From positions 1 to 64,000 of the forward strand of contig QPGO01000028.1 in assembly GCA_008632985.1 (NCBI GenBank): a stretch of 64,000 nucleotides of DNA, read 5' to 3'. A program made the position numbers and the translations under genes. The notes below the pieces were generated by a model, which did no database searches, was not told the DNA's origin, and saw only the letters and a program-made list of their open reading frames with translations. Positions within the stretch are counted from its first letter, which is position 1. Every line of letters begins with the position of its first letter. The stretch is from Psammoneis japonica. Its lineage: Eukaryota. Shown here piece after piece: positions 1 to 47,159 of this stretch.

Positions 1-1130
1 TCAAGGAGTTGTCCCAACATTTGAAGGCTGTGGCCACAAAGTGCCCAAGATGTTTGATGCCACAATGCTCAGGCGCTGGAGGAGCTGTGCAAACTTTTTC
101 AATGCCACAGGGCAGTTGTGCATGTTGTCAGATGTCAAAGTGATGCAACATCAGATGAGGCAGGTCTGCTTGCACTCATTGCAAAGTCCAGCCAATTGTT
201 TTGTTCTAAGAAAATGATGAAAAAAGGACTTGCAGTTGGCTGGAATTGCAGCTCTGATGTGACTCAAAACATGACACCCCCAGGATTGGAAAATGTTGTG
301 GTTTTGGGGTCAGTTTTGCATTTGTTTGCTTTTTCTTTCCCTTTCAGCTGGGAGCATCCAACATGGCCATTCTGCGAGCCCTGGCTCTTGTTTTGTGTCG
401 CTGGCCACACACGCCACCGTGTGTGTGGCCTGACTCTGTTGCCTTTGGAGGCCCACAGCCAAAAACAAGAATGCCCAACAGAATGGTGCCTGTGTGGCTG
501 TGCCTGGTGATGCAGCAGAGCAAACCCCAGGGGCACTCATTTGAGCCAGAACAGATGTCCCACACAAGCTGCCAAGTGTGTCAATGAGCGGCACACCTCA
601 ACTCTGCGCGCATGCTTCATCTCAGTGGAGTTGCCAGATGCTGTCTCAAGACATCTGTCATGAGAGACATCTTGGGATCACCCCCACCCAAAGCGAGCTG
701 GCAACACCTGTGTGAAGGTGCAAACAAGATCACATCTAACGACTTGAGTCTGGCACGCCTGCGCACATCTCCTCCCCGGCTGCCTGTTGAAAACAGCGTT
801 AAGATCATTGGCACATTTCTTGAGGTGGATTGTTGATCAGAGGGAGATGAGTCATCAAAGCATGCTTTGTTTGGCATTGAGCACATTGGTGTTTCACAAG
901 TACAGCCATCATTTCAGAGTGCATTCAAACATTGCCAATGAACGTCGAAATGAACGTCCATCCACACACCGTGTCATCGTCCGAACACGACGCGCGTTCC
1001 TTCCCAAATCCAATGTTCAGCCACGNNNNNNNNNNNNCTTTGGCAGAGGAATTCCGCTCACTTTTTCCCTCGCACAAAGCGGGGAGAAATGTTTTGGCCA
1101 CAATGGCATCAGATGACGCGTCTCTAAATT
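1..1130. other. TA/CG-depleted hypermutated domain D1 (open at window start)
   Basis: Only 4 TA dinucleotides counted by eye in 1-1080, versus roughly 2-6 per 60-nt line in the adjacent gene. TG/CA-rich. CG is retained in 940-1120. Confidence 0.85.
1026..1037. other. Assembly gap (12 N)
   Basis: Run of n characters. Confidence 1.
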
Positions 1131-1253
1131 GTCCGGTGCCAAAGTCACAGCCCAGAATGAAAAACTGGGAAAACTCCATTCGATGGCTTTGCTTCCAATC
1201 GTAGTCTATTTAGTTTTTGTCGCCCGTACATTTCATCAGGGATAGGGCTGTAT

Positions 1254-6719: not shown

Positions 6720-9620
6720 ACCACACAAACGGCGACGACAGTGAGCGGGTCATTGTCGATGCAGCGGATTTGTGCGACTCCGATGGCCACGGATTGAGAA
6801 TTTCACGCTGTGGGGTAAAAGCGAAGACACACGGGCAGACGAAAAATGCATGACCTTCGGTCATGCATATGACGTCAGCTGTCCCGCAGCGCGTGCATTT
6901 GGCGCGCGACCATCCAGCGACATGCCATCACAACATGGAACGAACACCACTCGTCGTGACAGCCATTGTCGACTATTGACAATGCGGGTAGCCAGAGAAA
7001 GCTCAAGGAACTCCTTGTTGACAAGTGCAACTGTTCAATGTCTCTTCTCCCAACTTGAGCTTGTTGTGGACTCGATTGGAGACAACATGCTGGAAGAGAG
7101 CATGGGAGCATCTTGTCTCTTTGTCCTCAAGAATGTGGTGCCTAACGGCGTCTACCTCACTCGTTGAATGTAGTGTGTTGAAGTGTGTTGGGCAGCTACA
7201 GGCTCTAGACAAGTCGTCGACCGCTGGCAGCAGATGAAAGGATCATGCCAGTTGTTGCCACGCAGCAAATCACGATGATTGGTTTTTCCTTGTCTGGTTT
7301 CCTTGTCTTTCCTCATCTGAGGAAATTCAGGGTCAAACAAGGAATTCCCTACGATCGAAAACCCCACGCAAGAAGCTTCAGCAGCACTCGTGTGTTTTCT
7401 GTTTTCTCACAAGTGTCATTCTCAACCCTGAACAGTGGCCAGTCACGCATGTTGCGAAACCGGGCTGCCTTGCTGTTGGAGTTGGCATTTCATCCCATGA
7501 CGTCATTTGCTGCACCGCATTTCAAGATGTTTAATTCTGAATGACAACATTGCAATTTTGCCCACGGTCTCCCTGATGGGGGATGCACCCTTCGTCGCGT
7601 CATCTTCCAGAACCACGTCACGTCTCGCCAAAAAGAGTGAGAGATTCCAAAGAGATTCTCCGTCGGGTGACGATTGGTGCATTGCAACTCCTCTTTCTTT
7701 TCACGCACACGACAATGGAAGTTTTAGAAGCCTGGCAGAGAAGAGCAGGTTGAAACATCATTCAGGCAAACAAACATCCCCGATGGCCACAAACAAGAAC
7801 ACACGTTGTCCCAAGAAAACAGACCTTTTGCTTTCCGAAAAAACAAGAAACACACCATGCTGACAGCTGGCACACCAGCTCAAAGTTTTTGCCAGACCTC
7901 AAAAACACTTGCAAGTTTTTCTGAAAAAGGGGTTTCCACCAAGACTGGCCAAAACAAAGTGGAAAGATGGTGACAAGGCTGTTTCAAGCAATGCCATCCT
8001 CAATTTCTTCTGTGAAAACACACAAGGCTCGTGGGCTCTGCCTCTTTTGGCTCTTTCTGTTTGTTGCTGAGAGCAGCCCCCTGGCACAAGGGAAAAAAGT
8101 GGTGCAGCACTCCCATGTTTTTCTCTGTTGCTGAGGAGCTGGTGTTGAAGTTGCTGTTGTTGTTTGGAACAAGCAAATGCAAAGCATGATCTTGCAAAAA
8201 ATCCCTCTGCTTTTTGGTGCGCCGGAAAAACAAAACAGCAGCCAGCCATTTTTGATGTTGAAGAAACACGAAAATGTGGCACACACACACACAGCTTGGC
8301 AAGCAACAAATGGGTTGCCAAAGCACTGCTGTGAAATTGATAAGGCTGGTTTGCTGCTGGAAAAATGGAAATCATGCAAACAAGAAGAGCTGCGCAGGCT
8401 CTCCTGCTCATTTGTGATTTGGGTGGCATCAAAAAGTTGCCCTGCATTTCTCCGATCCTGGGTGATGTGTGATGTTTGCAAACATTTGATCATGGTGTTG
8501 TTCTTGCACACTGTGCCGTGCATGCATTGGGGGACAGTCAATGCATGTGGTGCGCCATTTGCAGATGCTCTGGCGCCCTCTTTTGGAAATGCCAAAGTGG
8601 GTTTGCCCATGCCCTCTGGGCTGGGTGCTTCCCAGACACTGGAGCACAGTGGCGCATGCTGCACAATCTTGTCATGTTGTCCAGTGAACATGCATCATAA
8701 AAAATTGCCTTGATCAGCCTCAACAACAGTGCTGTGGCTGTGCTTTCATCCAGCCAAAGTGGGTGCTGCCCAGCACACACTCAAATGATGGATGCCATCC
8801 ATCTCTGCCCTCAAACTTGAAAGGCAGAAGTGCCAAGCAACACAAGCTGGCCTTCACTGTTGGTGGTGCCGTTGGTTTGCTCCTCACAGCACCACCTTCT
8901 GTTTCTGTTGCTCAGTGTGATTTTGTGATGAAGCCAGCACCAACCATTGTGTTGGGCTCTCTGAAGCTGCTTCAAGAGTCGATGGCAGCCATTGCAGTGC
9001 CCAAAACTCACAACCAAGATGTCCACAAGAGCCCTGGCTGCTGGGTTGTTTCTGGTGCACTGCATGGGAAGCTCAATGAAGCTGGTGGGTTTGGCACAGA
9101 AAGCACTTGCTTGAGAAATGCACAAAAAACATCTCAAAACACACAATGATGGGGACTCACACTGAAGACAAGGCTGCTGCTTGGAAATGTTGTCACGTCT
9201 GGGTTGGTTGATGGCTTGGGAAGGAAGCCACCTGGCAACCAGTTTTGCAGCCACCTCTCAATTGCTTCTTGGAGTGTCATCGGAAGATGGCAAATGCACG
9301 ACTCAACATGTGCAGGCTCTCCAGTGCAATGTGACATGGAATGCAACAGCTCAAACACACAGTTCAAACATGCCCCAATCTTCAAAGTAAAATCCTGATT
9401 CTGGCAACATCTCTTCAGATGCACACAATGTGCTCCACTGCAATCCCAAAAGTGTGGCACAACAAACGCACTGCACAGGTCCATTTTTTGGAACAAAGCA
9501 ACCAAACCATGCATGACAAGCAGCTGGTGGCTTTCAGACTGCACTGCAAACACGAGTCAGTGGTTGTTCCAAATGTGCCACGTGCACCATGGGCATGGAC
9601 AGATCTTAGAAGCACATTCA
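6720..9620. other. TA/CG-depleted hypermutated domain D2
   Basis: About 6 TA counted by eye in 7210-9600. CG persists in 6720-7700 and is scarce in 7850-9600. Many overlapping Cys/His-rich, Tyr-poor ORFs. Confidence 0.85.
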
Positions 9621-9762
9621 AAAACGAGACCGGCCGGCCCCAAAAATTTGCAACTTTGCCTCTACGGGAATCAATGGGATTTTCAGGCGAAGACGAACAG
9701 CGAAAAATAAGCTCAGGGTCTCTCATAACTCTTGAAAGAGAACAGAAAGGTTTTTCTTCACG

Positions 9763-10170
9763 ATGATGGACAGTGACGGCAACATTGAAGCCACCGTCGA
9801 CGTTGGAGGCAGCGATTTGCTATCTTCGATGCGAACAATCTGCTTCAAGTTTCACCACTTTGAGAATCTCCCTCAACAACGTGGAGAGGGAGTCACTTCT
9901 CCAGAATTTGCATTGCGCTCTTCTCAAGGAAGTTGCAGTCCAATTCTTTGTTGCCAACAGTGACAGGGCATTGGAACTAGAGTCTTTCAAGTCGATGGAC
10001 TCGCCAGAGGTACTTCGCGAGCTGACTGAAGCACTCGCGAAACCTAAAGCCTATACCCAGGATGAAGAGAACATTGACAGCATGAGCGTCGGTATCTTGT
10101 GCGAACAGCTCAGTGAGGCGGGGTTCGACGTTGACGGTTCCCGCGAAATGCTTGTTTAGCGTCTCAAGGA
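9763..10170 (+). pseudogene. Internally deleted MATH-BTB-SAP gene remnant
   Basis: The N-terminal MATH start (EATVDVGG...FKFHHFENLPQQRGEGVTSP) is joined at ~9912 to the BTB-end/SAP region (CALLKEVA...GFDVDGSREML). Both parts are homologous to 36385-37593. Confidence 0.8.
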
Positions 10171-10359
10171 GCTTCGTGAAGATATCTCTGAATAGGGCTC
10201 GCTCGCGCCTCGAAGCACTGACTATCCAAGTCTCCGAGAGCATTTCAAGAGGTGAACAGCTCCGTACTATTGGCATTGAGTACGAGCAGTTCTGTATGAG
10301 CCACTCATTTTAGCATACTATGCTGAACGGAATTAGTAACGACATCTAAACCACTTACT

Positions 10360-13161
10360 CTAGCTCTCAATAGCGCCTTCGCGACTAAACACCCGTCCAC
10401 CCTTGAGAAAGCCGGCAAGAGTGTTGGGTGGCGGTTTCAACATATCCGGCATGAACTTGACTTGAAGAGAATTAAACGCAAACAAGGCCTGCCCCACGTT
10501 CTTTTCGCAGACCGGAAGACGCGTTCCATACACACGCATCAGGGTTGCATTCTCAAAGACCCCGTCTTGATTGGCATTTGCGTCCTTTTGCAACAAGAAG
10601 CGACTCACAAACTGCGACTGCTTGTAGGTGACTTGCATGGCGGTACGGTCCTTGCCGCTCTTGCAAAAGACAACGCCCCCGCCACCCAAGCGCTGTGCCA
10701 CAAAGGCAGCCTCGTCGACAATACCGTGAACCATTTTCCCAGCCGACGACATGACCTTGGCATGAAGCGACGTCATGAGGGGATGAATCGTTTGTTGCTG
10801 CTGCTGCTGAGTAGAAGAGATATCCAACAAATTGCCGGACGGCGCCACGGGTGAAATCATGTGCGCATAATTGTTCATTTTGCGACACGCTTCCATATTC
10901 AATTGAATCAAGACATCATTGTCGGGAGTGCCGACATCGTCGTCTTCATCATCAATAATTCCACCACCCGTTGCTTCTTGCCCATCATCTCGTGAATTCA
11001 AATTCTGCTTGGCGTGTGCACCCCACTGACGAATATCGACTCCCACTTGATACAAGAGCGGATACAAGCGCACCGACGCGCCGTTGCGTAGTGGTTCTGG
11101 AATACGCTGCTCCTAATACAAGTGATCCATTCCGATTTCCAATCGATATTGCGTCGAGGAACCCTTGCCGGTATACGAGATTTGTACCCATTGCAAATAG
11201 GGTGAGTGCGGAACCGCTACTCTCGTTCCCGCCGTGCTGGGTTCATTGCCCGACACCAAGACAATTTCCACCATGCTTAGCATGGAAATACCCACACTCG
11301 CGTCTTCAATCATGCCCAATTCCTTCCCGGCCGCACTCAATAGACCCTCAAAGGCTACAAGATAACCGTGTCGTTTCCACAAATCCGGCCATCCCTGTTG
11401 CAACTTTGTCACATCCGACAGACTTGTCAAGTACGAACTCACGGCAATGCCGAGTGCTTGCGAAAAGCAATTGGCACGACGAACCGCACACGTCCAAGTC
11501 AAGGATGCCAAATGTTGCGTAATTTCAAACACTCTCCAACGCTTGGCACTAATATCGGCATGACGTGCCGACACGTGTGTCGTGCCTGGAACCGATGATA
11601 AATACTGTCCAACCGCGGCAATGAGAATCGATTGAGCCTGTTCCAAGGCTCTTGCCAATTCCAATCGTTTCGCTTCAAGTCGTCGTAATCCACCCCGAAT
11701 GGTTCCCACCGCCGTTGTGGCATCTCCTAGATAATTTCCAAAATTCCGTGCATGATCCGCCGGTGCACCGCACGTGACATTGGAAAACATGGCATTCGAA
11801 TGTGGTGCCGCCGATCCTTGTTGCAATACCTGCAGAGATAACGATTGTACGTGTACATTAAAACCAATGCCGGCCAAAGTCTCCTCCATGCGACTCGAAC
11901 TCGGACGAAAGGGTTTGGGTGACATATCTTGCCAACTTTGGACAGACGCGTCGTGCAATTTACCCACCAATCCATTTTGGTACAGATCCAATCGCTTTTG
12001 CAACAATTGCAGGTCTTTGTTTCGTTCTTGTTGAATGTGTGCTTGTAAGTGAGCATGTGTGATAAAATTACCCATGGTTTGCAATTGCGAGATACGCAAT
12101 TGTTTGGCTGCATCAAGGCTTTGTGGTACTGGGGCAGATGGACACGACATGGTATCATAATCCAATACGGGCAAGGTACCCGTCTCTTCCAAGAGTGTAT
12201 CCAATCCCACCAAGGATACCAATCCACCCCGTGCCGAAACAATCGTAGGTGCTGCAGCATTATCATTATCATCCATGCCAATGACCACTTTGAGTTGCAA
12301 ATCACCCATTTTTTGATTGGCTGCGTTATAGACGGGAATGGAAATAACTTGTTGTTGTTGCTGTGAAATACACGACTCGAGACTCAACAAGGCTTGCCAC
12401 GTTTCTTCCAATGGTTGCATGGAACTGTTGTTTGGTCGTCCTGCTCCCGCAGTATTATTGTAGGCAATACGCAATTGAAACCGCAACGTTCCCAATAACA
12501 CGTCATGAGACGAATTACGCAACGATGGCAATACTCCACTCGAGTCCTTTTTCATAATTTTGGCATGAAACGGAACCGATGAGGATTCAACAAATTCTCC
12601 AGATAGAGCTTGTGTATGGACCGCCAGTTTGGTTCCGGGCGGAGCGAGTTCAACTTCAAAAATGGAATCGGGACGTTGCCACGAAAGTGATGTCGTGACA
12701 GTCAAGGTATTGGTTGCTTCTTGTTGTTGCAATACTAGATACCCCATTCCAACATGAACATGTGCATTGCGTCCCTCCATGGAATCGTGACGATTCGCCA
12801 ATAAAGCAAGGGATACACTCTTGGCGTGTTCCAAAGAAATCTGGGAAGCATCTTTTAACAATCCCGCATAGGCGGTTGCCAGAGGCAACACGACGGAACT
12901 TTCAATACACCGTTCCGTGGCCACGAGCCAACTACTCGAAGAAGTAGTAGTAGTAGTATTGACATAACCATACGATGCATCCAGAGGCAAATTGTAAATG
13001 CCATTGTATCCCGATGGATTCGTCAAACTCCATCCCAATCCACACAAGACGGGATGTTTTAAATCCGTCACGATACAACAATGTAATTGTCCACCCACCA
13101 CCACGTGGGATTGTAATTCTACAAAATCAAAACCAAACGTTCCACCCGATTGTGTTAGAGT
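10360..13161 (-). pseudogene. 5'-truncated inverted copy of the inositol polyphosphate 4-phosphatase-like gene
   Basis: Near-identical to 28470-31278 and contains CKSGKDRT. It lacks the first ~210 codons and has an in-frame TAG at 11113-11115 where the other copy has TAT. Confidence 0.85.
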
Positions 13162-13162
13162 A

Positions 13163-13945
13163 TGATCCAAAAAATGGGTTCATCAAGGATGGTGTTCTCA
13201 AAGCACAGGTTCAAATTGACATCCCCACACAGCTCATTTCATGATGTCCCTCCAACACCATCAAAAATGACCTCATTGGTCATTTCAACAACAAGGACTT
13301 GGAGAATTTGTGAGCTTTTATGTGCACCGGTTTCCATGCTTTCTAAAATTGCAGCAGAGTTTTGATCCAGCAAGGACAAAAAGCTTGAAATTGCCAGTTT
13401 TGACCTGACAATTTTTGGATCATTTCTCTGGACTTTGTGTGGTGCAAAGGGCAAAAGTTGAGTGTCAAAACCATCATCGTGGGGCTGCTCAAAGCTGGAG
13501 TTGATCACAGAAGAGAGCCTCACAGAATCTGCCATTCCAGCCAACAAGGCATCCAACGTGTTTTTTCTCTTGCAGGAGGAGTTGTCCTCTCCCCAGGGAG
13601 GTTGCCACATGTGTGCGGGCATTTTTGTTGCCACAACAACCAGCAGGCTGCAAGGAAACCCCATGCACATCATTCCTTGGAGTCACCTCAGTCACCAGAC
13701 AAAATGAGGGCTGCTGCTCTGTGAAGAGAAAGTTTGGTTGGGGGGGGGCTCAATGTGGGCAGCACTCATGAAACATGCTGGTCAACAAGGACCTCAAGGT
13801 GCAGCAGCAGGCACCAACCAGCTCCACAACCATGATGTCACAGCTCTTGTCACAGACACACTGGCTGCAAAGGCCAAACAAAGGATTGTTTGCACCAGTG
13901 CATGTCAGATCTGCCTGGACCGGGTTGGACTTGGGTCAGCAAGTG
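13163..13945 (+). pseudogene. Hypermutated MATH-BTB-SAP relic 1 with 3' flank
   Basis: DPKNGFIKDGVL...PSNTIKNDLIG, KIAAEF...IFGSFL and SLESP...KMRAAAL align to 22228-23435. 13915-13944 matches 23552-23581. Confidence 0.8.
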
Positions 13946-14094
13946 TCGTTGTTTGCAACAACAAGAACAATGAACCAGCGCTGCACATGTGTCCACAGAG
14001 ATGGTGCAGTGGACAGACACATGGCATTGTGCTGCAATGGCATGTGCCTCAAGGCTGCTGCAGGCAGCAAACAGTCAAAAATCTGTCTCTGTGA

Positions 14095-14835
14095 TCATGG
14101 CAACAGGCAGTGATGGCAACATGGAAGTCACAGTCAACATTGGAGGCAGTGATGTGCTGTCTTTGAAGTGAACAATCTGCTTCAAGTTTCACCACTTTGA
14201 AAATCTCCCTCATGCAAGTGGGAAGGGAGTCACTTCTCCAACATTTCTTTGTCATGGATGTTGCTGGGCAGTTGAACTCTTCCCATGTGGAGACCAGCCA
14301 ATTGTCCCGTGTTGTGTGTTGCTGGCTTTGTGGTGTGTTGGCACCCAGGTGAATTGATTGATGCAGAAATCACATTGCAAGCAGGTGGGTGCATGGAAAG
14401 CACTTTTCATTCTTTTGCAGCATCAAGCAAAGTTTGTGGGTTGAGGGATTTACAAAACATGACAATGTGACTCATCCAGACCATGAGTGCCTTGCAAGTG
14501 GTGTGTTTGTCATGAATTGTTTCATTCAGATTTGTCTTCCAAAGCAAAAGATTTGGCATCCTGGTGGCACGTTCAAAGACAACATGGCAGCTCTGCATGG
14601 ATCTGAGAAATTCAAAGACGTCACCTTTTCTGTTGACGGCAAAACAATTCAGGCTCACCAGGCCCTCCTGGCAGCTCGTGCCATGCAGTTCACTGAAATC
14701 TTTGATTGTGGCTTGTTTGCACCTTGAAGCACTGACCGTCCAAGTTCCCAACAGCATTTTGTGTGGTGAGTTGCTCTGCACTGTGATGGTGTTGAGCGCA
14801 AACAGCTCTGTGCGAACCACTCATTTTGGCTTGTT
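14095..14835 (+). pseudogene. Hypermutated MATH-BTB relic 2 with 3' flank
   Basis: 14105-14240 aligns to 9770-9905. CHGCCW...LFPCGD corresponds to CHGYLW...LYPRGD, and KFKDVTFSVDGKTIQAHQALLAARA is the BTB start. 14710-14830 aligns to 10197-10315. Confidence 0.8.
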
Positions 14836-16530
14836 GTGCGGAAGAACAGGATCATCAGTGCCAGTGAAAGACAGCAAAACTGACAGCACACATGTTTTGG
14901 AGTCATGTCTTCCCAACCATTCTGTCATCCAAGCCATTTTTTGAGTCACCTCTGCGCTGTGATGCCATGGTGTGATTTGACACCATGCACTCTCCAGCAA
15001 AGCAGGATCACAAAGAAAGAAAATGACAATGTGTGACTTGACTCTGACCATTCCATGGTTGCCAAGGCTCTAAAAGCCTCACCAAGGCCAAGTGCATGGT
15101 CCAATTGCAGTTGAAGTGCCCTCCTCCATCAAGCATGTGCTCTGCCTGGATGAGCTCAATGGCAGTGCACTTTGGCAAGATGCTGCACACTGCCTCAACC
15201 ATTGGCTGCACCAACTTTGCCATTGCTCTTGAAACACATGCATCCACTGTGTGGCATTCAATGGACCCACACAAAGGACACTTGTCATCTTTGGGCACCT
15301 TGAGAAGTTCCCAAAGTGCCAAGCATTTGTTGATCCATTACACTCCAAGCTGCCAGATGCTGAAGCACTTGACACCACAAACTGCAAAAAGATGTGCATC
15401 CCCCCCCCTCTCCAGGAAAGCCAGCAACCATGAGCTTCCAGTGGCCACACCCACAACAATGTCTCAGCACCCATTGCTTGGTCACTGACACACAGTCATG
15501 TTTGTCAACAACACCTCCATGAAATTGACCTGTGAGCTGTGGTCTGCATGAGGTGAACCCCAGCCAAGCATGATTTCCCAAAGCAAGAGCAAAGAGTCAA
15601 TGACACACCCAAAAAACATTGAGAAACCTGAGTCCAGCTCCTCCAACAATGGATCCACCACCACACATGACCTGACTGCCAAGGAGAAGATTGTTGCTGC
15701 TGTTTTTTCAGAGAGCCCTGACATGTGCTCAATCATGACCAAATTTCAGTGACTGCTGACTGTGTCATCCATGTCATCATGGGGACTGGGGAGAAATTTG
15801 GTGGTCAAACCAGTTGGATGTGCTGACACAATGTGTCACATGCCCCCCAACATTTGTCTTGATGATGTTTGAAGACAATGCGCCAGCACCAAAAATCCAT
15901 GGCCATGTGCCCAGCCAAGATCTCCCCAAGAGAAGATTTGCGGCTGAGATTTCTGGCTTGAAATGGGGAGCAATGTTGCAAGAGATCATGATGGGTTGTC
16001 AGGAGTGCATGCTCCAACACCTTGCTCCAGAGTCTGATGCTTGCAGCACTTGGTGCGCCACAATGCTGCTCATGTTTTTGGAGCAAAGTGTGGCCAGAAG
16101 CTGCCGCGCCTTGTGCTGGAAAATCCTTTGATCTGCTTGTTCACAGCACCCAGCAATTTGACATCACTGGCTTGCATCCTTTTGTTGACTGCCATTCCAA
16201 GCTCTTTGGGCAGCCTGGCTGGTCGAGGAGGGCGAGCCTCTTTCTGCGATGGTTGCCATGCCTCCTCTCACACAAAAAGCTGTGTGCCTCTCATTTTGTG
16301 GTGTGTTGTTCTGTTGCAAAGATTTTGCAGTGACCTTCAGCCCAGTTGTTCATCCAGATCACACTCGAGTCATCTCCAGTGTTTCCCAATGGCTTCCATG
16401 GACAAGGGGGCCGTGACGTTTTCGCACAAATGACACGCGACTGGCCATTTGCGACGCGCTCTCAGCACGCGCCAGCGCATCGCGCACATGCGCGAGTTGA
16501 GTTGACAGCACAGCAGGGCGATCCAGGAAA

Positions 16531-16820
16531 CTTCGAAGACTTCGAAAGATTCCACATTCCATGACATTTCTGTAAATTGTTCTACGTGCAGAGCTCGCAG
16601 GTTGTTGGCACTCAACAAATGAGGGGCAACAGATGAAAGTTCAAACAAATGTGTTGTGTGTTCGAAGCTTTTGAATGTTGTTCGAAGTGTTCGAATTTTT
16701 GTCGAAAACATGTTGCCCTCCAAAGATTTTGATTCATGTCACCTGTTGTTCGAACTTTTCACATTGCCCTTTTGGTCACTTCGAACTTGTTCGAACAAGT
16801 TCGAAGTGTTCGAACAAGTT
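16531..16820. repeat. Left subterminal TTCGAA palindrome array of the Harbinger
   Basis: Many TTCGAA copies, several at 9-10 bp spacing (16780-16815). Confidence 0.85.
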
Positions 16821-17237
16821 GAATGGCAGATCTCGCACTGCCTGCACGCACAACCACTGCACAATGGAATCGCGCTTTTGCTTGCATTGCCCAAAGACAC
16901 AAAGGAAGAAAAAGCATCCACGACACGATGTCCAACCTCCATTTTAATTTTTTCGAACGAGACGACAAGTGATGCCAATTGCTGTCGAGGTGCTGCATCT
17001 TCGGTCGCGTCATAAGTCACCAATCAGATTGCCGAAGGCCATCTGCCTCAAGATGCTGCATGCCGGCAGTGCTGTGCACGTCATCATTTATGTCGCGTTG
17101 CGGCGACGTGGCAAAACGAGAATTCCGGATGTTCGGTGAGTGCAAAAACCCGCACAAAAGCACGGCCACAACAAAATCACGCACAAAAGCAAAGCACCAG
17201 ACTCTTCATTCTTTGTTTGATCACATCGATGAGTGGC

Positions 17238-17448
17238 ATGCGAAAAGACAGTGACGACTGGAATCCAGTCAAAGAGCAGATTGCAAGCGGCCTGTTTGAC
17301 CTTTCGAAACACATCCCACACCGCCAAATTCTCGATTGCAACGTGGAGCAAGGAAATTGGGAAAAAGACAAGCACAAGCTTCCGGCATTTTCAACAAGTT
17401 GCCGAAACCTTGTCAATTCATTACGAACTGAGAGACAGCTTGAATCGG
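17238..17448 (+). CDS. Probable first exon of the Harbinger accessory gene, carrying TA-type mutations
   Basis: MRKDSDDWNPVKEQIASGLFDL...KHKLPAFSTSCRNLVNSLR is followed by a GTAAGT donor at 17449. His/Cys sit where Tyr would be plausible. Confidence 0.45.
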
Positions 17449-18364
17449 GTAAGTGCGTTTTGTCTTCATCCCCGGCTTCTTCGGATTTTCTGGACTCACG
17501 ACCGTTGCGTCTCGCATTGTTGCTCGTGCTCGCCCGCCGCGGATGCCGCACTGTGGAGGTAGACGGAAAGAATACAACCCTGGGTACAACTGCGTAGGGT
17601 CTAGTGCTTCTTCTACAGGGTCACCAGGAAAGCACAGACACCGACTTCCGCTACATCAACCTGCAGCACCCTCCAAGACGCGCAGCTGCGAAGACAACCA
17701 AAAAAGAAAACGATCGCGACAATGGCCTCCCTTGCGTCGCTGACATCTACATCTGTTTTTGCCGTATTTTCCCGTTTCTTTTCGCAGCATTCGGAGCTTT
17801 TATACAAGCAATGTGATGGGCTAGTGGTGCTGGCGTTGAGTTCAATCCGTCGAGGCGGATTTGTCGCTGAAGGTGCAGTGCAGAAATTGTGAGAATGCAG
17901 CATCAACATGACGGATTTTTGTGATGTGCTGTTGTATCTTTGGTGTTGTTTCTCACTTCTTGTCATCATTTTGACGTATGTGCCATAAGGTGTCCACGGG
18001 GCTTGGGTTTTTATGGTGCTGACTTTCTCTTCGGAGCTTATCGTTGAATAATCAAAATTGAGCTGCCACTGGAATTTATGGTAAAGAGTTGGCGGCGGTG
18101 ATGTCTCAACATCCCTTGGGCCGATTTTCGCGATTCTTGTTTCATTGTTGATGGAAATTGTACAAGGAATCCAAGAGGCTTGGTTTTGTTGTGCAAAATT
18201 CCATTCTGTGCAGATGGATTTATTGGATGCCGTGCGCACAGAAATGATGCTTCAATTGGAAGGGGCGCTCCAGCGATGTTGTGGATTGAACAAGGAAGAA
18301 TGAAGCCCTAGACACGCACTGCATGTAACAAGAATGTTAAGTGTGAATGTCAAACATGGCACGG

Positions 18365-18680
18365 GGTTTTTTACGTCAGTTGATCGTGTCGGGTTGCCTT
18401 GATTTGACAGAACATTCCACGGCACCAACCGGTTTGACATGTAGCTGGAAATCGGCTTCCTCCAGTGTTCCAACCAATTTGACCTTGCTTGCATGGGCAA
18501 GCTGTTGTCGCCTGGTTCGGGTGTTCCATACGCCTTTAGACCCATCCACCACGACATCGTTGGGGGTTGTTTGAATGGCCTCTGGTTGGTGAAGTCTTGT
18601 TCACATTGACAAGTCACCCCGCCAAGAAATGACGTGAGTGCTATCAAGGTTGGCTTGTAATACTTTTTAGACGGCATGGT
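18365..18680 (-). mobile_element. Fragment resembling the N-terminus of stramenopile Crypton-type tyrosine-recombinase proteins, nested in the Harbinger
   Basis: WMGLKAYGTPEP...QARSNWLEHWRKPISSYMSNRLVPWNVLSNQGNPTRSTDV resembles, from memory, the AYG..P...RS..L...KKAIS.FM......W.....GNPTRS..VN block of oomycete/diatom CryptonS-like proteins. No catalytic domain is seen. Confidence 0.5.
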
Positions 18681-18867
18681 CTCGGTTGTATTGTTGCATA
18701 AATCTATCAAAAACGCGACGTACCATGCAACAACCCGGTTGTTTCGATACGGGAAAAATTCCCGTGCTTCCTCCACAAGAACACGGAAGATACGGTCGCT
18801 GAAGTGGGGTAACGGTCAGTACAATGTGTAGAATTCAACGGAGAAATACTACGGAATACAACATGGG

Positions 18868-22040: not shown

Positions 22041-22227
22041 TTTCCTGGATCGCCCAGCTCACAATCCAAAGCGTTCTTTTTTTCAAACTGAAACCGCCAT
22101 CAAAACTCAAAACACAACGGCAAAACTGGAAACAAAGCCAACGGCGGACCAAAAAGAAAAGATCAGCAACGGAAAAAGCAAAAGAATAAGAGGCTGCAAA
22201 GCAAAGAAGAGACTTCAATAAGAAAGC

Positions 22228-23435
22228 ATGTTGCATCGCATGGCGCAAGAGATGATTCTCAGCTGGCTGTTGCCTTTCTTGCTCGGGATGGCTCTGACCA
22301 TCAAAGCTCTGACAAGGAACGAAAGCAAGAGGAGAGCCAGCTCTTGTTTTACATTTCGAGACTTTGCAAATCGTCCGCACGATCGTGATGAGATGGAATG
22401 TTCTTTCCCCGTTTTATTCCGTGACAATCTTTGGCGGTTGATTCTCTACCCCGGGGGCAGCAAAACCTCTGATGCAGAGACGGCTCATGTCTCGATTTAT
22501 CTGAAACGCGCGCACGCCGACCATGACCCAGTCAATGTGCAAATCACATTTCGAGTGGGTGGAGGTCGTCTTGTCAGAGAAATCAGTCAGACGATCGGTG
22601 TTGAAACTTGTTGGGGATTCGCGGATTTTGCCACTCGTGCTTACATTCTTGATCCCGCGAACGGATGCATCCAGAACGACGCCCTTGACATAGAGGTTGA
22701 CATTCAGATCAACTCGCCCACACAGCGCATTTGTTGGTTTCCCTCTAACACCATTAAGAAAGACCTCATTGGTCTACGAAATAACGAGGCCTTGGCGGAC
22801 GTAACATTTTTGGTCGGCTTGAAATCATTTCAAGCTCACAAACAAATTCTCGCTGCTCGGGCGCCCGGGCTTTTCGAAATTGCAGCAGAGTTTGAATCCG
22901 GTGCAGACGACAGGCTTAAGATTGTCAATGTCGATCCATCAATCTTTGGGTCTTTCCTGGGCTTCTTATACTCAGACGAGCTCCCAGAGGACATGAACAT
23001 CGAAACGGCCATGGGATTGCTCGAAGTGGCTGACAAGTACAACTGCTCTAACCTGAAGCTCGTCGTCGAGTCAGCGCTCGCAGAATCTCCATTCCAGTTG
23101 ATGAGGTAGTGAACTTTCTTGTTTTTGCAGACAGCAAGAACTGTCCTCTCCTCAAGGAGGTTGCCATGGACCTTTTCGTTGCCAACAACCAGGCCGCAAT
23201 GAAATCCGATGCGTTTCAGTCGTTGGAGTCACCTGAATTGATCCGGGAGTTAATGGCAGCGGTTACAGGCCCACGGACCTATGCCGAAGACGTCCCAGAA
23301 AAGATGAGGGTCGCCACTCTGCGAAGAAAGCTTGACGAGGCGGGGCTCGACGTGGACGGCACTCGTGAAACACTAATTAGGCGTCTCAAGGCACATGCAA
23401 CAACTAGCTCCACCACCGTGGCGCCGCAGCTCTAG
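22228..23435 (+). CDS. MATH-BTB/POZ-SAP domain protein (one frameshift at ~23090)
   Basis: WRLILYPGG (MATH), ADVTFLVG...AHKQILAARAP (BTB) and MRVATLRRKLDEAGLDVDGTRETLIRRL (SAP-like). Confidence 0.85.
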
Positions 23436-31966: not shown

Positions 31967-33179
31967 CTAGTTGGTGCTTGTCTTGAGACGCTTGATCAGC
32001 GTTTCACGAGAGCCATCCACGTCGAGCCCCGCCTCGTGAAGCTTTCTTCTCAGAGTGCCAACCCTCATATTTTCTGGAATGTCTTCGGCATACGTCCTTG
32101 GACTTGTGTCTGCCACCAGTAACTCCCAGAGCAATTCAGGTGACTCCAAGGGCTGAAATGCATGAGATTTGATTGCAGCCTGCTTGTTGGAACAAATTGG
32201 TCCATGGCGACCTCCTTGAGGAGAGGACAGTTCTTGCTGTCTGCAAAAACAAGCATGTTGACTACCTTGTCATCAGGAAAGTTGGATGCTGCGAGTTTGG
32301 ACTCCACCTTGAGCTTCAGATTAGAGCTGTTGTACTTGTCAGCCACTTCGAGCAGTCTCATGGAGGTTTCGACATTCATGTCCTGCGGGAGCTCGTCTGA
32401 GTACAAGAAGCCCAAAAGGACCCAAAGATTGACGGATCGACATTGGGAATTTCGATCTTCGTATCGGATGGAAACTCTGCCGCAATTTCGTAAAGTCCGG
32501 GCGCCCGAGCAGCGAGAATCTGCTTGTGAGCTGGAAACGATTCCAAGCCGACCAAAAAAGTCACATCCGCCAAGGACGTGTTGTTTTGTAGACCAATGAG
32601 GTCCTTGTTTGTGGTGTTAGAGGGACACCAAAAAATGTCGAATTCAAAGTCAACATGTACTTTGAAAACGCCGTTCTGGATGCAATTGTTCGCTGGATCA
32701 AGAACAAAATCACGAGTTTCAAAATTCGGGAATCCCTGATCGGTGTCACCGCTGAAGGTGTGACGGAAACTTTCGGTACGATCCCCGGTTCGAAAAGTGA
32801 TTCGTGCATTGACCGGGTCACGGCCGGTGTCGACGCGTACCAAATAAATGCCAACATGTTCCCTGTCCATTTTGGATTTGTTGCCGCCCCGGGGGAAGAC
32901 ACTCAAACGCCAAACACATCCGTGGATTGAAAGGGATGAAGAATGGAGACTCTCACCACGATTGTGTGGACGATTTGCGAAATCTGCAAATTCAAATCCG
33001 ACTTCAAAGGTGCCCATCTCGCTCTCCCTCTTTTTCAACGTCAGCGGCTCAGACGAACTCATGATTGCAATCGTCAGAGAGCAAGCCAGAGCTGTTGTTG
33101 CCAGAGCAGCCACCCAGGACCAGGACAAGGCAGGCCACAGCCAACTGAAAGTCATCTTGTGCACCATGTTATGCATCAT
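31967..33179 (-). CDS. MATH-BTB/POZ-SAP domain protein (frameshifts at ~32415 and ~32190)
   Basis: Inverted paralog of 22228-23435 with the same motifs and homologous 5' and 3' flanks. Confidence 0.85.
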
Positions 33180-33371
33180 GCTTTTGTATCGAAGTCTCTC
33201 TTCTTTGCTTTGTCGTTGTCGTTTGTGACGATTGTGCGGTTTTGGTGGTAACCATACGCTTCACCCGCTTCGCCGTTGGTTTTTTTTGATCCGGCTTTTT
33301 GAGTTTGAAAAAAAAACGTTGGATTTTGAGCTGCTGTGCTGTCGGCTCAACTTGCCTTTTCGTTCGTTAGC

Positions 33372-43329: not shown

Positions 43330-45280
43330 CAGAGAAGCTTTTTTGAAGCGCGCCGTCGCGCGAATCCTCAACAGCTGCACAGCAATGCTCCATGCTGGCG
43401 GTTGCCCTGCTGCTGCTAGCACTCTGCTCCACCCCCAGATAACACGGCAAGCTGACCAAGATCCCTGCATCCATGCAGCAATGACACTAGAGTCTCAACC
43501 CGTTCTGCGTGTTTGGAAATGAAATCCTGAGAAAAGGTGAGGTGTGCTGCAAGAAGAAGAGCAAAAAAGCGGCCACACTTGAAGCCAAGCTGTTCTCGGA
43601 CACATGCCATCATTGTTCTCTTGCAGATGGTGTCAATGCTGCATGCAGACCATTCTCATTCCTTGTTTCCTGGCACATGGTCTGTGCAAGGTGATGGTGT
43701 GGAGAGTCGCTCCGGCTTTGCCTCTTGGTCGTGCCCACGTGCCCATCTGCCCAGTCCTCCCGACGGGGGATCTGCTCCTTTTGCTGTGACGTGGTGTGCC
43801 ATCTGCTCAACACAGAGGATCATTGTCTGTGGGTCCAACATCACACAGATTCCCACCCATGATGTCTGGAGTGCACCATGTTGGCTGTGACCGCAGAATC
43901 TCCGTGAGCATCGCACACAAAATCTGTTCTTTTTTGTCCATGGGAGCAGAGGAGAGCTGCACCCAACATGAGAGAAATGCCGCAAAAGGAGGTCAAGGCA
44001 CCCCCACCACCTTGCAAGCAGCCAGACCACATGCCGTTGCCTGCCAGCTTTTCCACATCTTGAAGTGCTTGTGGACCTTTCTTTTTTTTTTTGACTCACA
44101 TTGCTTCCCCATCTCTTTTTTGTCTCTCTCCTTTGGTCATGGTGTGCCAGGCGCAACAACATGCCCCAGCTGCAAGTGGGGTGCTGCAGCAGGGGACTGT
44201 GGCACATCTTGCAACTTTGGATGAAGTTTTGCACACAATTCTTGGACAATCTGTTCAACAACGTTTTGCATTTTTTTGTTCCTCTGCACTCTCTGGAGAG
44301 AGCACAAACATGAAAAAAAGGACTTTGAAGTCTCTGCATGTGTGTGGAGGCGTGGTGGCATTGCAAACATGGGCTGCAAGCAAGCTGTGTTATCAGCACT
44401 GTTGACAATGCTTTTGTTGTGTCAGACAACACATGATGCTGATCAGCAGACAAGCGAGGCAAGTTTCTGCGTGTGTGCACAAAAAAAGCACCAAAGAACC
44501 AAAAGTGGTCACACAGGTGTTGAGCTCAAAATCCCCCTCCAAAAGTGATGTCAGAGACTGTGAGACATGCTCCTCTGTTGCACAAATCATCAACAGCAAT
44601 GTTGGAGCTGAGCATGCAATTTTGCAGCAGAGGCAGCAGATGCAGCACTCTGTTCCTCATCCATGACAAAGACCACAGCAGCACAAAAAAAGAGAAGAGC
44701 AGCAGCAAACTGTGGCAACAATGTGTGAGTCAGATGTTTTTGGTGCACCAAGGTGATCACAAAGCAGAGTGAAGATTCTTTGCAAGGCTCAAGTGTGCTG
44801 GAGTGTTGTCTTCCTGGCACCAGGCTTGCTGCTGTTGGATGATTTTCCCAGAGAGCTCTGCTTGTGATTTTGGTCATTCCCCACACCCTGTGATGACATG
44901 GGGTCAATGGCAAGAACAAACTCTGCAAATGTAACACCTTGGAAGCTGGTTTGGCAACTCATGGTGACACTCATTGCAGTTTCAAATAGCTGCGGCAGAG
45001 TTGCTGTGTCTGTTGGAAGACATGCTTCTCATGAAGTCAACAGACCAGATTTGGTGGCCAAAAGATGGCAGAATCTTTCAGCTTGACACTTCCATGTCTG
45101 AGTGGAGCCAAGTTGCTTGGGGATCTTTCAAATGGCTAGGCTGAGTGCAAAATGGCTCTGGGCAACCTGTGTTCTTGTCTGTGCAACCTTGCCACAGCTG
45201 CGATCCTCAATTACCGCCACGTACCAGCATGTGGCAGCTTTGACAGACCTGAATTCAGACCTGGAACAAAAAGGATGGTC
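43330..45280. other. TA/CG-depleted hypermutated domain D4
   Basis: About 1 TA counted by eye in 43500-44920. TG/CA-rich. More CG survives at the left edge. Confidence 0.85.
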
Positions 45281-46818: not shown

Positions 46819-47159
46819 CATTGTTCACATAAAGGAGATGAAGTCAAAATAGTCAAGCGATCAAGCGATCTTCTGATCTTTTTCGTGTTGAACCGGATCT
46901 TGCATGTGTATGCGCGTGCGTGAGAAAAAAATCTGTTGGCAGCACAAGAACCTACAACGTGATAGGCCAGGATACAGCGCGATGGATCCGCGACCACCCA
47001 AGGCCAACACGAGTGAAAAAAGACGAGGATGAAAACCAGATAAATCAGGAGAGAAACGGCACTAGAATCGAGAAGAAGAACGATCCGAACAACATGGACA
47101 TGCCCAATTGTTTGGGACATTGGTCAACACCTTGGCGAAACTGCAGGAAAGTAATTAGA

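What the first reader, a model, noticed from the sequence alone, without database searches (positions are those of the whole stretch)
13163..16515. Regional hypermutation that erases both TpA and CpG into TpG/CpA: a candidate genome-defence process opposite in direction to RIP
Seen: five multi-kb domains (~15 kb in total) have almost no TA and little CG, while neighbouring genes are normal. This is the best-documented domain, with about 5 TA in 3.4 kb. Its identifiable contents are dead gene copies and a transposon end. Established: CG->TG/CA is expected from deamination of 5mC, and diatoms methylate repeats at CG via DNMT5. Fungal RIP makes C->T changes and increases TpA. Neither removes TA. 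Inference: a second activity converts A->G (T->C on the other strand) specifically in TA context, nearly to saturation and only in these domains. Candidates are a TadA/ADAT-like DNA adenine deaminase with 5'-TA preference, or error-prone (Pol eta-like) repair synthesis coupled to T:G mismatch repair. AA/TT runs look preserved, which favours a strictly TA-specific agent. I know of no description of this in diatoms but cannot search. No causal enzyme is visible in the window.
Basis: partly seen in the sequence, partly recalled or inferred. Interest (0 to 1): 0.95.

Follow-up and report, generated by a model that had tools for sequence, protein, structure and literature searches.

The report
TA-erasing hypermutation domains, diatom-like genome
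Five stretches of this diatom-like nuclear DNA have had almost every TA and most CG turned into TG or CA; this is the same TA-specific mutation process recently caught in the act in another alga, here run to completion on dead copies of the host's own genes.

Summary
In 13163-16515 there are 5 TA (O/E 0.02), 41 CG (0.20), and TG/CA at 1.88/1.87. Five such domains cover about 14 kb of the 64 kb. The direction of change was tested. Two relics of MATH-BTB genes inside the domain were compared with intact paralogs in the window. Of 25 ancestral TA, 0 survive and 21 became TG or CA. Of 43 ancestral CG, 2 survive and 30 became TG or CA. Pyrimidine-purine steps stay at 24-25% of dinucleotides and GC content is unchanged, as expected from transitions alone. 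Contigs built from a public run carry the TA-free sequence at about 99% identity, so an assembly artefact is unlikely. TA loss extends up to 1 kb beyond CG loss at four edges, so two processes are at work. A 3.1-kb, 96%-identical duplicate lying between two domains is untouched, so the trigger is not RIP-like. Surviving TAs sit mostly in TTA/TAA, above all TTAA, both here and in an unrelated metagenome contig. TpA-specific hypermutation was shown experimentally in Bigelowiella natans in a 2026 preprint. This is therefore a new member of a known kind, in an ochrophyte. The enzyme is unknown.

The parts
1..1200 (.). Domain D1, cut by the window start. TA-depleted to ~1200, CG-depleted to ~940. 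N gap at 1026-1037.
   Evidence: 1-940 has TA 4 (O/E 0.07), CG 14 (0.24), TG 1.83, CA 1.89.
6720..9605 (.). Domain D2. The TA-depleted zone starts at ~6720-7230. CG depletion starts only at ~7712. The right edges coincide (TA 9600-9607, CG 9619-9625).
   Evidence: core 7712-9605 has TA 4 (0.03) and CG 21 (0.19). The TA-only flank 6720-7711 has TA 11 (0.18) and CG 57 (0.90). Weak protein similarity of 8907-9143 to the C-terminal exon of paralog P1.
13162..17420 (.). Domain D3, which holds the finding. The TA and CG left edges coincide at 13147-13163. CG depletion ends at ~16364; TA depletion ends at ~17420.
   Evidence: 13162-16364 has TA 5 (0.02) and CG 25 (0.13). The TA-only zone 16365-17420 has TA 5 (0.07), CG 67 (1.10), TG 1.42, CA 1.51.
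13164..13944 (+). Relic 1: BTB half and 3' part of a MATH-BTB gene. It is collinear with intact paralogs P1 (22717-23581) and P2 (32637-31793).
   Evidence: Where P1=P2: 14 TA -> 0 kept (9 CA, 2 TG); 25 CG -> 1 kept (9 CA, 7 TG). Other dinucleotides are kept at 47-76%.
14108..14860 (+). Relic 2: MATH domain and start of BTB of a second MATH-BTB copy. It resembles 9771-10327 and 31444-31311.
   Evidence: (Pfam BTB, E 9.8e-5, in ORF 14362-14724), 29, 30: 11 ancestral TA -> 0 kept (7 TG, 3 CA, 1 CG); 18 CG -> 1 kept (8 TG, 6 CA).
16512..16823 (.). TTCGAA-rich short repeats and a palindrome inside the TA-only zone.
   Evidence: Only 32-66-bp matches to 21824-22059, too short to polarise.
43490..45210 (.). 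Domain D4. The TA and CG edges coincide on both sides.
   Evidence: TA 4 (0.04), CG 23 (0.22), TG 1.80, CA 1.83. No Pfam hit.
47158..51976 (.). Domain D5. CG depletion ends at ~51640; TA depletion ends at ~51976.
   Evidence: core 47158-51640 has TA 12 (0.04) and CG 37 (0.15). No Pfam hit.
22222..23432 (+). P1, an intact MATH-BTB(-BACK-SAP) paralog used as the ancestral reference.
   Evidence: (Pfam MATH_2, BTB, BACK, SAP).
32068..33260 (-). P2, an intact MATH-BTB paralog used as the ancestral reference.
   Evidence: P1 vs P2: TA kept 18 of 31, CG kept 32 of 56, others 73%.
10039..13170 (-). Young inverted segmental duplicate of 28461-31605. It lies between D2 and D3, has normal composition, and its right end coincides with the left edge of D3.
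   Evidence: 2999 of 3115 aligned bases are identical. TA<->TG/CA differences are symmetric (9 vs 11). TA count is 122 vs 121.

Best explanation
These are old, silenced stretches of nuclear DNA of an ochrophyte, most likely a diatom. They include dead copies of the host's MATH-BTB genes. Two separable transition processes have rewritten them. (1) A TpA-specific hypermutation turns TA into TG or CA (A:T->G:C). It acts on both strands about equally, prefers TA not flanked by a 5' T or a 3' A (TTAA is the most refractory), and has gone to near saturation. (2) CpG decays to TG/CA, as expected from deamination of 5-methylcytosine in methylated chromatin. Process 1 has the same signature as the TpA hypermutation measured de novo in Bigelowiella natans. 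Shown here: the direction, the dinucleotide specificity, the confinement to domains, the separability of TA loss from CG loss, and independence from sequence duplication. Inferred: the chemistry, which I take to be enzymatic deamination of adenine in 5'-TA-3' DNA (A->inosine->G) by a nuclear deaminase of the ADAT/TadA type or another deaminase. I put about 0.4 on that enzyme class. Also inferred: targeting by chromatin or silencing state rather than by homology. At this locus the process looks historical or episodic, not spreading now.
For: Polarity: pooled over three relic-versus-intact comparisons, 0 of 25 ancestral TA are kept and 21 became TG/CA; 2 of 43 ancestral CG are kept and 30 became TG/CA. 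Other dinucleotides are kept at 47-76%. Between the intact paralogs P1 and P2, TA is kept at 18 of 31 and CG at 32 of 56.

Bookkeeping: pyrimidine-purine steps make up 0.244 of dinucleotides in normal non-ORF DNA, 0.244 in normal ORFs and 0.247 in the domains. GC is 0.485 in domains and in ORFs. This is what transitions within YR steps predict.

Region specificity: (TG+CA)/TA is 3199/38 = 84 in domains and 1994/707 = 2.8 in normal non-ORF DNA. The loss-to-gain ratio for TA is therefore at least ~30-fold higher in domains (inference from an equilibrium argument). TA O/E is bimodal.

Two processes: at four edges TA depletion runs 0.26-1.06 kb past CG depletion. Zone 16365-17420 has TA 0.07 with CG 1.10.

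Not an assembly artefact: contigs of public run X1 cover 7610-8471, 8576-9663 and 14171-14998 with 8, 7 and 9 differing letters.

Context rule: 28 of 33 surviving TAs lie in TTA/TAA, against 39% of normal TAs and 45% expected from back-mutation sources (p ~4e-6). TTAA accounts for 8 of 33 against 4%. The rule is replicated in metagenome contig L010, whose 2.9-kb domain has TA 0.25, CG 0.24, TG 1.68 and CA 1.74. There 39 of 61 surviving TAs lie in TTA/TAA against 199 of 523 elsewhere (p 1.6e-4), and TTAA is 13 of 61 against 16 of 523.

Precedent: in B. natans, 230 of 231 de novo mutations in two hypermutable regions are A->G/T->C, all of them at TpA, at ~1000x the background rate. That genome also has 124 TpA-poor/CpA+TpG-rich clusters and an ADAT2-like candidate (bioRxiv 10.64898/2026.01.13.699255; Results and Discussion read).
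Against: No enzyme was identified: no deaminase domain was found among the window ORFs scanned. No methylation, chromatin or de novo mutation data exist for this organism.

The polarised sample is small (25 TA, 43 CG) and the relics are old (other sites ~29% diverged). The polarised data alone therefore give only a weak lower bound on the rate; the stronger bound rests on an equilibrium assumption.

The targets recognised are host gene relics, not viral or TE DNA as in B. natans. 1 of 125 in-domain ORFs and 0 of 24 read-through frames hit Pfam.

The young duplicate between D2 and D3 shows no leakage (9 vs 11). Current activity at this locus is therefore not shown, and at least the left edge of D3 can be explained as an age boundary.

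Run X1 may come from the same sample as the assembly and its platform is not on record.

The B. natans text read does not mention CpG loss or flanking context, so identity of the two processes is an inference. L010 is 1 of 10 loci, and its depletion is partial.
Confidence: 0.62

Rival explanations
1. Same phenomenon, different chemistry. The thymine of TpA is enzymatically modified (for example oxidised to 5-hydroxymethyluracil or a J-like base by a TET/JBP-type enzyme, or alkylated at O4) and mispairs with G. This gives T->C, which on the palindromic TA looks identical to A->G on the other strand.
For: TA is palindromic and TG is about equal to CA in every domain (1584 vs 1615). There is no strand-coordinated clustering (runs z from -0.3 to -1.9, as in normal DNA). 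The sequence therefore cannot tell A-deamination from T-modification. T and 5mC are both 5-methylpyrimidines in a YpR step, which would link the two losses (inference).
Against: No such enzyme or base is shown for this organism. TA-only zones with normal CG show that the two losses need not go together. The one experimental precedent proposes A-deamination, though without proof.
Confidence: 0.15
2. The trigger is RIP-like. Duplicated sequence is recognised by homology and mutated, but with TA->TG/CA chemistry instead of CpA->TpA.
For: The only identifiable contents of D3 are duplicates of a multi-copy gene family. The left edge of D3 falls exactly where homology to that family ends (13162-13164).
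Against: A 3.1-kb inverted duplicate pair that is 96.3% identical (10039-13170 vs 28461-31605) is unmutated in both copies, with symmetric TA<->TG/CA differences of 9 vs 11. P1 and P2 (78% identical over 1.3 kb) are intact. A DDE_Tnp_4 ORF at 20607-21212 has normal composition. In B. natans the main target is single-copy.
Confidence: 0.1
3. Error-prone repair synthesis (a Pol eta-like WA-motif mutator) recruited by T:G mismatch repair in methylated DNA produces the A->G changes.
For: TA and CG loss coincide at five of nine edges. Pol eta prefers WA motifs (recalled knowledge).
Against: AA is not depleted: O/E is 1.27 in domains against 1.13-1.20 in normal DNA. In relic 1 A>G outside TA is 15 of 96, no higher than G>A outside CG at 13 of 92. 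TA-only zones have normal CG, so the TA process does not need CpG lesions.
Confidence: 0.07
4. There is no targeting at all. Any old, unconstrained DNA in this genome drifts to a TA- and CG-free equilibrium, and the domain edges are only age boundaries created by later insertions.
For: The relics are old (non-TA/CG dinucleotides kept ~51% versus 73% between P1 and P2). The left edge of D3 is the end of a young duplication. TA is under-represented genome-wide (0.51-0.68).
Against: Normal non-ORF DNA keeps TA O/E 0.68 and CG 1.00. Some intergenic windows reach TA ~1.0. The distribution is bimodal with almost nothing between 0.10 and 0.15. The TA loss-to-gain ratio differs ~30-fold between domains and other non-coding DNA.
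Confidence: 0.07
5. It is a sequencing, basecalling or polishing artefact at modified bases, or foreign DNA that arrived with this composition.
For: Modified bases can cause systematic long-read errors (recalled knowledge). The platform of the assembly and of run X1 is unknown.
Against: Read-derived contigs of run X1 reproduce the TA-free sequence at ~99% identity in D2 and D3. The domains contain relics of host genes with polarised changes, so the composition was acquired in place. A second, unrelated assembly (L010) shows the same syndrome.
Confidence: 0.03

Closest known systems
TpA-targeted hypermutation of integrated viral regions in Bigelowiella natans (Mettrop et al., bioRxiv 10.64898/2026.01.13.699255, 2026)
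   Same: The changes are TpA->TpG/CpA only. They are confined to discrete regions. The long-term footprint is TpA-poor, CpA+TpG-rich clusters. GC-ward transitions go against the usual AT bias. The enzyme is unknown, with an ADAT2-like candidate proposed there.
   Different: The organism here is an ochrophyte or diatom, not a chlorarachniophyte. Depletion is near-saturated (O/E 0.02-0.07, against Rho 0.45 for their NCLDV region). It is coupled with CpG decay, which the text I read does not mention. The recognisable targets are host gene relics, not viral or TE genes. A flanking-base rule (TTA/TAA, above all TTAA, refractory) is seen here and not reported there. De novo activity is not shown here.
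Repeat-induced point mutation (RIP) of Neurospora and other fungi
   Same: Region-limited, near-saturating transition hypermutation that kills gene copies and leaves a dinucleotide footprint.
   Different: RIP is C->T (CpA->TpA), raises TpA and lowers GC. Here TpA is destroyed and GC is unchanged. RIP hits both copies of a duplication. Here a 3.1-kb pair at 96% identity is untouched.
CpG decay by 5-methylcytosine deamination in methylated repeats (diatom TE methylation by DNMT5; Hoguin et al. 2023, PMC9998398, seen only as a search listing and the start of its abstract)
   Same: CG->TG/CA is confined to the domains, while the rest of the window has CG O/E 1.0.
   Different: It explains only the CG half of the signature. 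TA loss extends beyond it and is far more complete. Methylation itself was not measured.
ADAR hyper-editing / ADAT-TadA adenine deaminases (5'-U/T preference; recalled knowledge and the Discussion of the preprint)
   Same: A->G with a 5' T. ADAT2 relatives can act on DNA, according to the preprint's references 21-23.
   Different: ADARs act on dsRNA and are metazoan. No strand-coordinated clusters are seen here. No such gene was tied to the domains.

Membership tests
TpA hypermutation as in Bigelowiella natans (2026 preprint) | Substitutions are A:T->G:C transitions at TpA (TpA->TpG or CpA) | tested here: met
   0 of 25 ancestral TA kept; 21 became TG/CA. No general A>G excess outside TA (15 of 96, against G>A outside CG 13 of 92).
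TpA hypermutation as in Bigelowiella natans (2026 preprint) | [quoted passage not shown] | tested here: met
   Domains have TA 0.02-0.07 and TG/CA 1.8-2.0 over 1-4.8 kb.
TpA hypermutation as in Bigelowiella natans (2026 preprint) | Confined to discrete regions; the rest of the genome has an ordinary spectrum | tested here: met
   Tested within the window only: bimodal TA O/E; normal DNA has TA 0.51-0.68 and CG 1.0. Genome-wide testing was not possible.
TpA hypermutation as in Bigelowiella natans (2026 preprint) | Targets are integrated viral or other foreign sequences | tested here: inconclusive
   The only identifiable contents are host MATH-BTB relics. 1 of 125 in-domain ORFs and 0 of 24 read-through frames hit Pfam. 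Heavy degradation may hide the origin.
TpA hypermutation as in Bigelowiella natans (2026 preprint) | De novo rate ~1e-7 to 1e-6 per site per generation in mutation-accumulation lines | not testable with these tools
   No MA or population data. The young duplicate beside the domains shows no asymmetry (9 vs 11).
Fungal RIP | C->T at CpA, raising TpA and lowering GC | tested here: not met
   TpA is erased, CpA is enriched, and GC is unchanged at 0.485.
Fungal RIP | Triggered by duplication; both copies are mutated | tested here: not met
   A 3.1-kb pair with 2999 of 3115 bases identical is unmutated. Intact paralogs P1 and P2 sit beside the mutated relics.
5mC-driven CpG decay | CG->TG/CA polarity and low CG O/E limited to the silenced region | tested here: met
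   2 of 43 ancestral CG kept; 30 became TG/CA. CG O/E is 0.13-0.24 in domain cores against 1.00 outside.
5mC-driven CpG decay | Cytosine methylation present on the domains | not testable with these tools
   No bisulfite or long-read signal data available.
ADAR-type hyper-editing fixed through an RNA intermediate | Strand-coordinated clusters of A->G on one strand; retro-copied target | tested here: not met
   Runs test of TG against CA order gives z from -0.3 to -1.9 in domains, the same range as normal DNA. TG is about equal to CA. No reverse transcriptase domain found.
Pol eta-type WA-motif mutagenesis | AA as well as TA is mutated (WA->WG) | tested here: not met
   AA O/E is 1.27 in domains against 1.13-1.20 outside.

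The most novel reading that the evidence does not exclude
A chromatin-guided DNA editing system that deaminates adenine (or modifies thymine) at VTAB sites is shared by distant SAR lineages, namely Rhizaria (Bigelowiella) and Stramenopila (this diatom-like genome and contig L010). It works beside cytosine methylation to destroy silenced DNA irreversibly, including the host's own redundant gene copies. This would be an ancient eukaryotic genome-defence and pseudogenisation pathway distinct from RIP and from APOBEC-type editing.
Probability: 0.3. Interest if true: 0.85.

Novelty: new member of a known kind. Interest (0 to 1): 0.68.

Why it matters
The B. natans process was described in one chlorarachniophyte in 2026. 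If the process here is the same one, it is not a lineage oddity. It would be a wider eukaryotic way of permanently inactivating silenced DNA. It acts on A:T pairs, runs against the universal GC->AT mutation bias, and can reach saturation. The window adds four things the preprint text I read does not give. First, co-occurrence with CpG decay, but separable from it. Second, host gene duplicates as targets. Third, independence from sequence duplication. Fourth, a flanking-base rule (TTAA refractory) that any candidate enzyme must reproduce. In practice, such domains are invisible to homology-based TE and pseudogene annotation. They distort codon and dinucleotide statistics. They can be found cheaply in any assembly by scanning for TA, CG, TG and CA O/E together.

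Tried and rejected
1. Whole-genome scan: no genome is held for this window, so genome-wide bimodality and TE-family spectra could not be computed.

2. Content of D1, D2, D4, D5 and the right part of D3. Pfam on 125 in-domain ORFs gave one credible hit (BTB) and three weak ones below their cut-offs. Twenty-four frames read through stops as X gave nothing. The long ORFs 43659-44525, 51293-52207 and 7987-8694 are Cys/His/Gln/Trp-rich junk.

3. Strand asymmetry. Sliding O/E values suggested CA-rich and TG-rich blocks, and the relics gave 9:2 against 3:7 (Fisher p 0.03). Raw counts and runs tests show nothing beyond normal DNA, so I dropped this.

4. 'Transposon end'. Only TTCGAA-rich short matches were found. 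No terminal inverted repeats were found in 5000-20500.

5. RNA evidence. No RNA holder is listed for the stretch. Run X2 (same sample) has a contig that skips 3138-3224 like a spliced transcript, and it has no cover on 7410-9933 and 13089-17505.

6. Depth in X1 is much higher at 5517-7409, 16244-16874 and 17506-19398. The tool warns that depth is not copy number, so these are only noted as possible repeats.

7. Earlier scan notes: four look-ups found nothing relevant.

8. Taxon. A DUF6824 protein search gave only 2 unnamed hits. Placement rests on the SET-MYND relatives (Seminavis robusta 32%, Tribonema minus) and on the absence of any B. natans hit.

9. Metagenome survey. Only 10 loci (53 kb) were retrieved, and 9 show no TA-poor window.

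10. Supplements of the bioRxiv preprint (Table S2, which lists the de novo mutations) are closed, so its flanking context could not be checked.
Full report
**Observation**

The stated interval 13163-16515 (3353 bp) has 5 TA (O/E 0.02), 41 CG (0.20), 381 TG (1.88) and 405 CA (1.87). AA and TT are normal at 1.17 and 1.20. Base composition predicts 218 TA, and the window's ordinary O/E predicts 111-149. P(<=5) is about 6e-41.

Sliding windows, TA-gap analysis and change-point fits define five TA-poor domains:
- 1-~1200 (cut by the window start)
- ~6720-9605
- 13162-17420
- 43490-45210
- 47158-51976

Together they cover 14,046 bp with 38 TA (O/E 0.04) and 238 CG (0.29). The other DNA of the window has TA 0.68 and CG 1.00 outside long ORFs, and TA 0.51 and CG 1.00 inside them. 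Within the window TA O/E is bimodal. 48 of 255 half-kb windows are below 0.10, only 3 lie between 0.10 and 0.15, and the main mode is 0.5-0.7.

**Organism**

No genome is held for the window. A SET-MYND gene of the window has its best named relatives in Seminavis robusta (a diatom, 32%) and Tribonema minus. The best unnamed hit is at 41%, and no Bigelowiella protein appears. A DUF6824 gene is present. I treat the source as an ochrophyte, most likely a diatom, and not Bigelowiella natans.

**Direction of change**

D3 holds two relics of MATH-BTB genes, whose intact paralogs lie in the same window:
- P1, 22222-23432 (+)
- P2, 33260-32068 (-)
- P3, 37611-36388 (-)
- a short copy at 9767-10327

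These were found.

Relic 1 (13164-13944) was aligned with P1, P2 and P3. I took columns where P1 = P2 as ancestral. Of 14 TA, none is kept: 9 are CA and 2 are TG. Of 25 CG, 1 is kept: 9 are CA and 7 are TG. All other dinucleotides are kept at 47-76%.

Relic 2 (14108-14860) was aligned with 9740-10350 and 31290-31480. Of 11 ancestral TA, none is kept (7 TG, 3 CA, 1 CG). Of 18 CG, 1 is kept (8 TG, 6 CA).

Pooled: 0 of 25 TA are kept and 21 went to TG/CA. 2 of 43 CG are kept and 30 went to TG/CA.

As a control, between the intact P1 and P2, TA is kept at 18 of 31, CG at 32 of 56, and the others at 73%. Outside TA there is no A>G excess (15 of 96, against G>A outside CG at 13 of 92).

Two bookkeeping checks fit pure transitions within pyrimidine-purine steps. 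The share of YR steps is 0.244 in normal non-ORF DNA, 0.244 in normal ORFs and 0.247 in domains. GC is 0.485 in domains and in ORFs.

**Rate**

At or near equilibrium the ratio of TA loss to TA gain equals (TG+CA)/TA. This is 3199/38 = 84 in domains and 1994/707 = 2.8 in normal non-ORF DNA. The TA-destroying rate is therefore at least about 30-fold higher relative to the reverse transitions. This is an inference, and a lower bound.

**Artefact?**

One public run (X1, coded; platform not on record; possibly the assembly's own sample) holds 67% of the sampled words of 9000-18500. Its read-derived contigs lie on the domains with few differences:
- 7610-8471: 8 other letters
- 8576-9663: 7 other letters
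- 14171-14998: 9 other letters and 7 gaps
- 16795-17579: 0 other letters

The TA-free text is therefore in the reads' own assembly. Restoring normal TA density would need roughly 30-45 changes per kb. A second, unrelated assembly shows the same syndrome (see 'A second example' below). I rate an artefact at 0.03.

**Two processes**

Change-points for TA and for CG coincide within 130 bp at five of nine edges. At the other four, TA depletion runs further:
- 6720 vs 7712
- 17420 vs 16364
- 51976 vs 51640
- 1200 vs 940

Zone 16365-17420 has TA 5 (O/E 0.07) with CG 67 (1.10) and TG/CA of 1.42/1.51. Zone 6720-7711 has TA 0.18 with CG 0.90. TA loss therefore does not need CpG loss. CpG loss is what 5mC deamination in methylated DNA would give. 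That is established knowledge for diatom repeats; of Hoguin et al. 2023 (PMC9998398) I saw only the search listing and the start of the abstract.

**Targeting**

The stretch 10039-13170 lies between D2 and D3. It is an inverted duplicate of 28461-31605, with 2999 of 3115 aligned bases identical. Both copies have normal composition (122 and 121 TA). Differences of the type TA<->TG/CA are symmetric (9 vs 11).

The right end of this duplicate (13170) coincides with the left edge of D3 (13161-13163), and there the TA share of YR steps falls from 0.20 to 0.009.

Three conclusions follow:
- Duplication as such does not trigger the process, unlike RIP.
- The process has not spread into adjacent young DNA.
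- D2 and D3 may be one old domain split by a later insertion (inference).

A DDE_Tnp_4 transposase ORF at 20607-21212 is also unmutated. No TE or viral domain could be recognised in any domain, so the 'defence' label is not shown. What is shown is that silenced or dead host gene copies were hit.

**Symmetry and context**

TG is about equal to CA in every domain (1584 vs 1615 overall). Runs tests show no strand-coordinated clustering beyond normal DNA.

Of the 33 TAs that survive in the domain cores, 28 lie in TTA or TAA and 8 in TTAA. The corresponding shares are 39% and 4% among normal TAs, and 45% and 7% expected if survivors were fresh back-mutations from TG/CA (p ~4e-6 and 0.002). The process therefore prefers TA without a 5' T or a 3' A, and the palindrome TTAA is the most refractory.

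**A second example**

Of 10 metagenome loci that encode relatives of the SET-MYND gene (53 kb in all), one shows the syndrome and the other nine show no TA-poor window. This is L010, 14.7 kb. It has a 2.9-kb domain (4401-7300) with TA 0.25, CG 0.24, TG 1.68, CA 1.74 and YR share 0.240. The rest of the contig is normal (TA 0.50-0.76, CG 0.86-0.88). Its surviving TAs show the same bias: 39 of 61 lie in TTA/TAA against 199 of 523 elsewhere (p 1.6e-4), and TTAA is 13 of 61 against 16 of 523.

**Literature**

Nine full-text searches were run. They found one description of TpA-specific hypermutation: Mettrop et al., bioRxiv 10.64898/2026.01.13.699255. I read the outline, abstract, Results, Discussion and keyword passages. 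Its supplements are closed.

In B. natans mutation-accumulation lines, 231 of 302 nuclear mutations fall in an integrated NCLDV region and a virophage region. All but one of the 231 are A->G or T->C, and all of those lie on TpA. The rate is ~6e-7 per site per generation, about 1000-fold above background. The genome also has 124 TpA-poor, CpA+TpG-rich clusters, and an ADAT2-like protein is proposed as a candidate.

The text I read does not mention CpG, flanking context or diatoms. Searches combining diatom with TpA/TpG, 'TA dinucleotide', 'RIP-like' or RIP plus dinucleotide found nothing relevant.

**Mechanism**

I commit to an enzyme-driven, TpA-specific A:T->G:C transition process that acts on silenced chromatin, with ordinary 5mC decay superimposed. 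Confidence in the phenomenon is about 0.6-0.7.

For the chemistry I favour adenine deamination in 5'-TA-3' DNA (about 0.4). ADAT/TadA enzymes naturally edit an A preceded by U (recalled knowledge). Relatives of ADAT2 edit DNA, according to the preprint's references 21-23.

A modified-thymine route cannot be separated from this by sequence, because TA is palindromic (0.15).

Other rivals:
- A Pol eta-like WA mutator is disfavoured because AA is intact.
- Passive age-related decay is disfavoured by the TA-normal non-coding DNA and the bimodality.
- A RIP-like trigger is disfavoured by the untouched 96% duplicate.

**Verdict**

This is a new member of a known kind, described in 2026 in a different lineage. 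The additions here are saturation, coupling to CpG decay that is nevertheless separable, host-gene targets, independence from duplication, and a flanking-base rule. Interest: 0.68.

Noticed in passing
window 10039-13170 and 28461-31605: A 3.1-kb inverted segmental duplication (2999 of 3115 aligned bases identical). It carries a multi-exon gene with no Pfam family. The copy at 10039-13170 lacks the first ~277 codons of the ORF at 27630-28898 and abuts the hypermutated domain D3.
   Followed up: yes
window 20607-21212 (-): ORF with a DDE_Tnp_4 (PIF/Harbinger-type) transposase domain (E 3e-6) and normal TA and CG content. This is a transposase gene that escaped the hypermutation.
   Followed up: partly
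window 16512-16823 and 21824-22059: Arrays of TTCGAA motifs, including a 32-nt perfect palindrome at 16777-16808. They resemble heat-shock-element arrays or subterminal TE repeats. CG is kept there although TA is gone.
   Followed up: partly
window 5791-6190: Seven degenerate tandem copies of a 37-nt unit spaced 32-77 nt apart (mostly 61-77). Contigs of run X1 show many alternative joints between 5532 and 7367, suggesting a length-variable repeat next to D2.
   Followed up: no
window 17506-19398: Summed contig depth in run X1 is 683-3129 here, against 46-83 on neighbouring single-copy DNA. This may be a high-copy element. TA and CG are normal and its ORFs have no Pfam hit.
   Followed up: partly
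window 13161/13162 and 15668-15723: Contigs of run X1 differ structurally from the window in two places. There is a joint with unknown inserted letters exactly at the left edge of D3, and a 54-bp stretch is replaced by 16 other letters inside D3.
   Followed up: no
window 22001-22750, 32001-33250, 24001-24500: The intact MATH-BTB paralogs P1 and P2 and an LRR gene have TA O/E of only 0.18-0.34 with normal CG. This is lower than other genes (~0.5). It could be codon usage or light, selection-filtered TA hypermutation.
   Followed up: partly
L010 401-1200: A second TA-poor stretch in the metagenome contig (TA 0.07, CG 0.53). It is strongly asymmetric (CA 2.0, TG 1.35) and GC-rich (0.52). It may be a biased coding region rather than a mutated domain.
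   Followed up: no
window 19426-20388: GC-rich (0.59-0.64) block with CAG/CCG-type repeats. It is open in several frames and encodes Gln/Pro-rich low-complexity protein.
   Followed up: no
window 22222-23432: The MATH-BTB paralog P1 continues into a second ORF with BACK and SAP domains. The family therefore has a MATH-BTB-BACK-SAP architecture.
   Followed up: no
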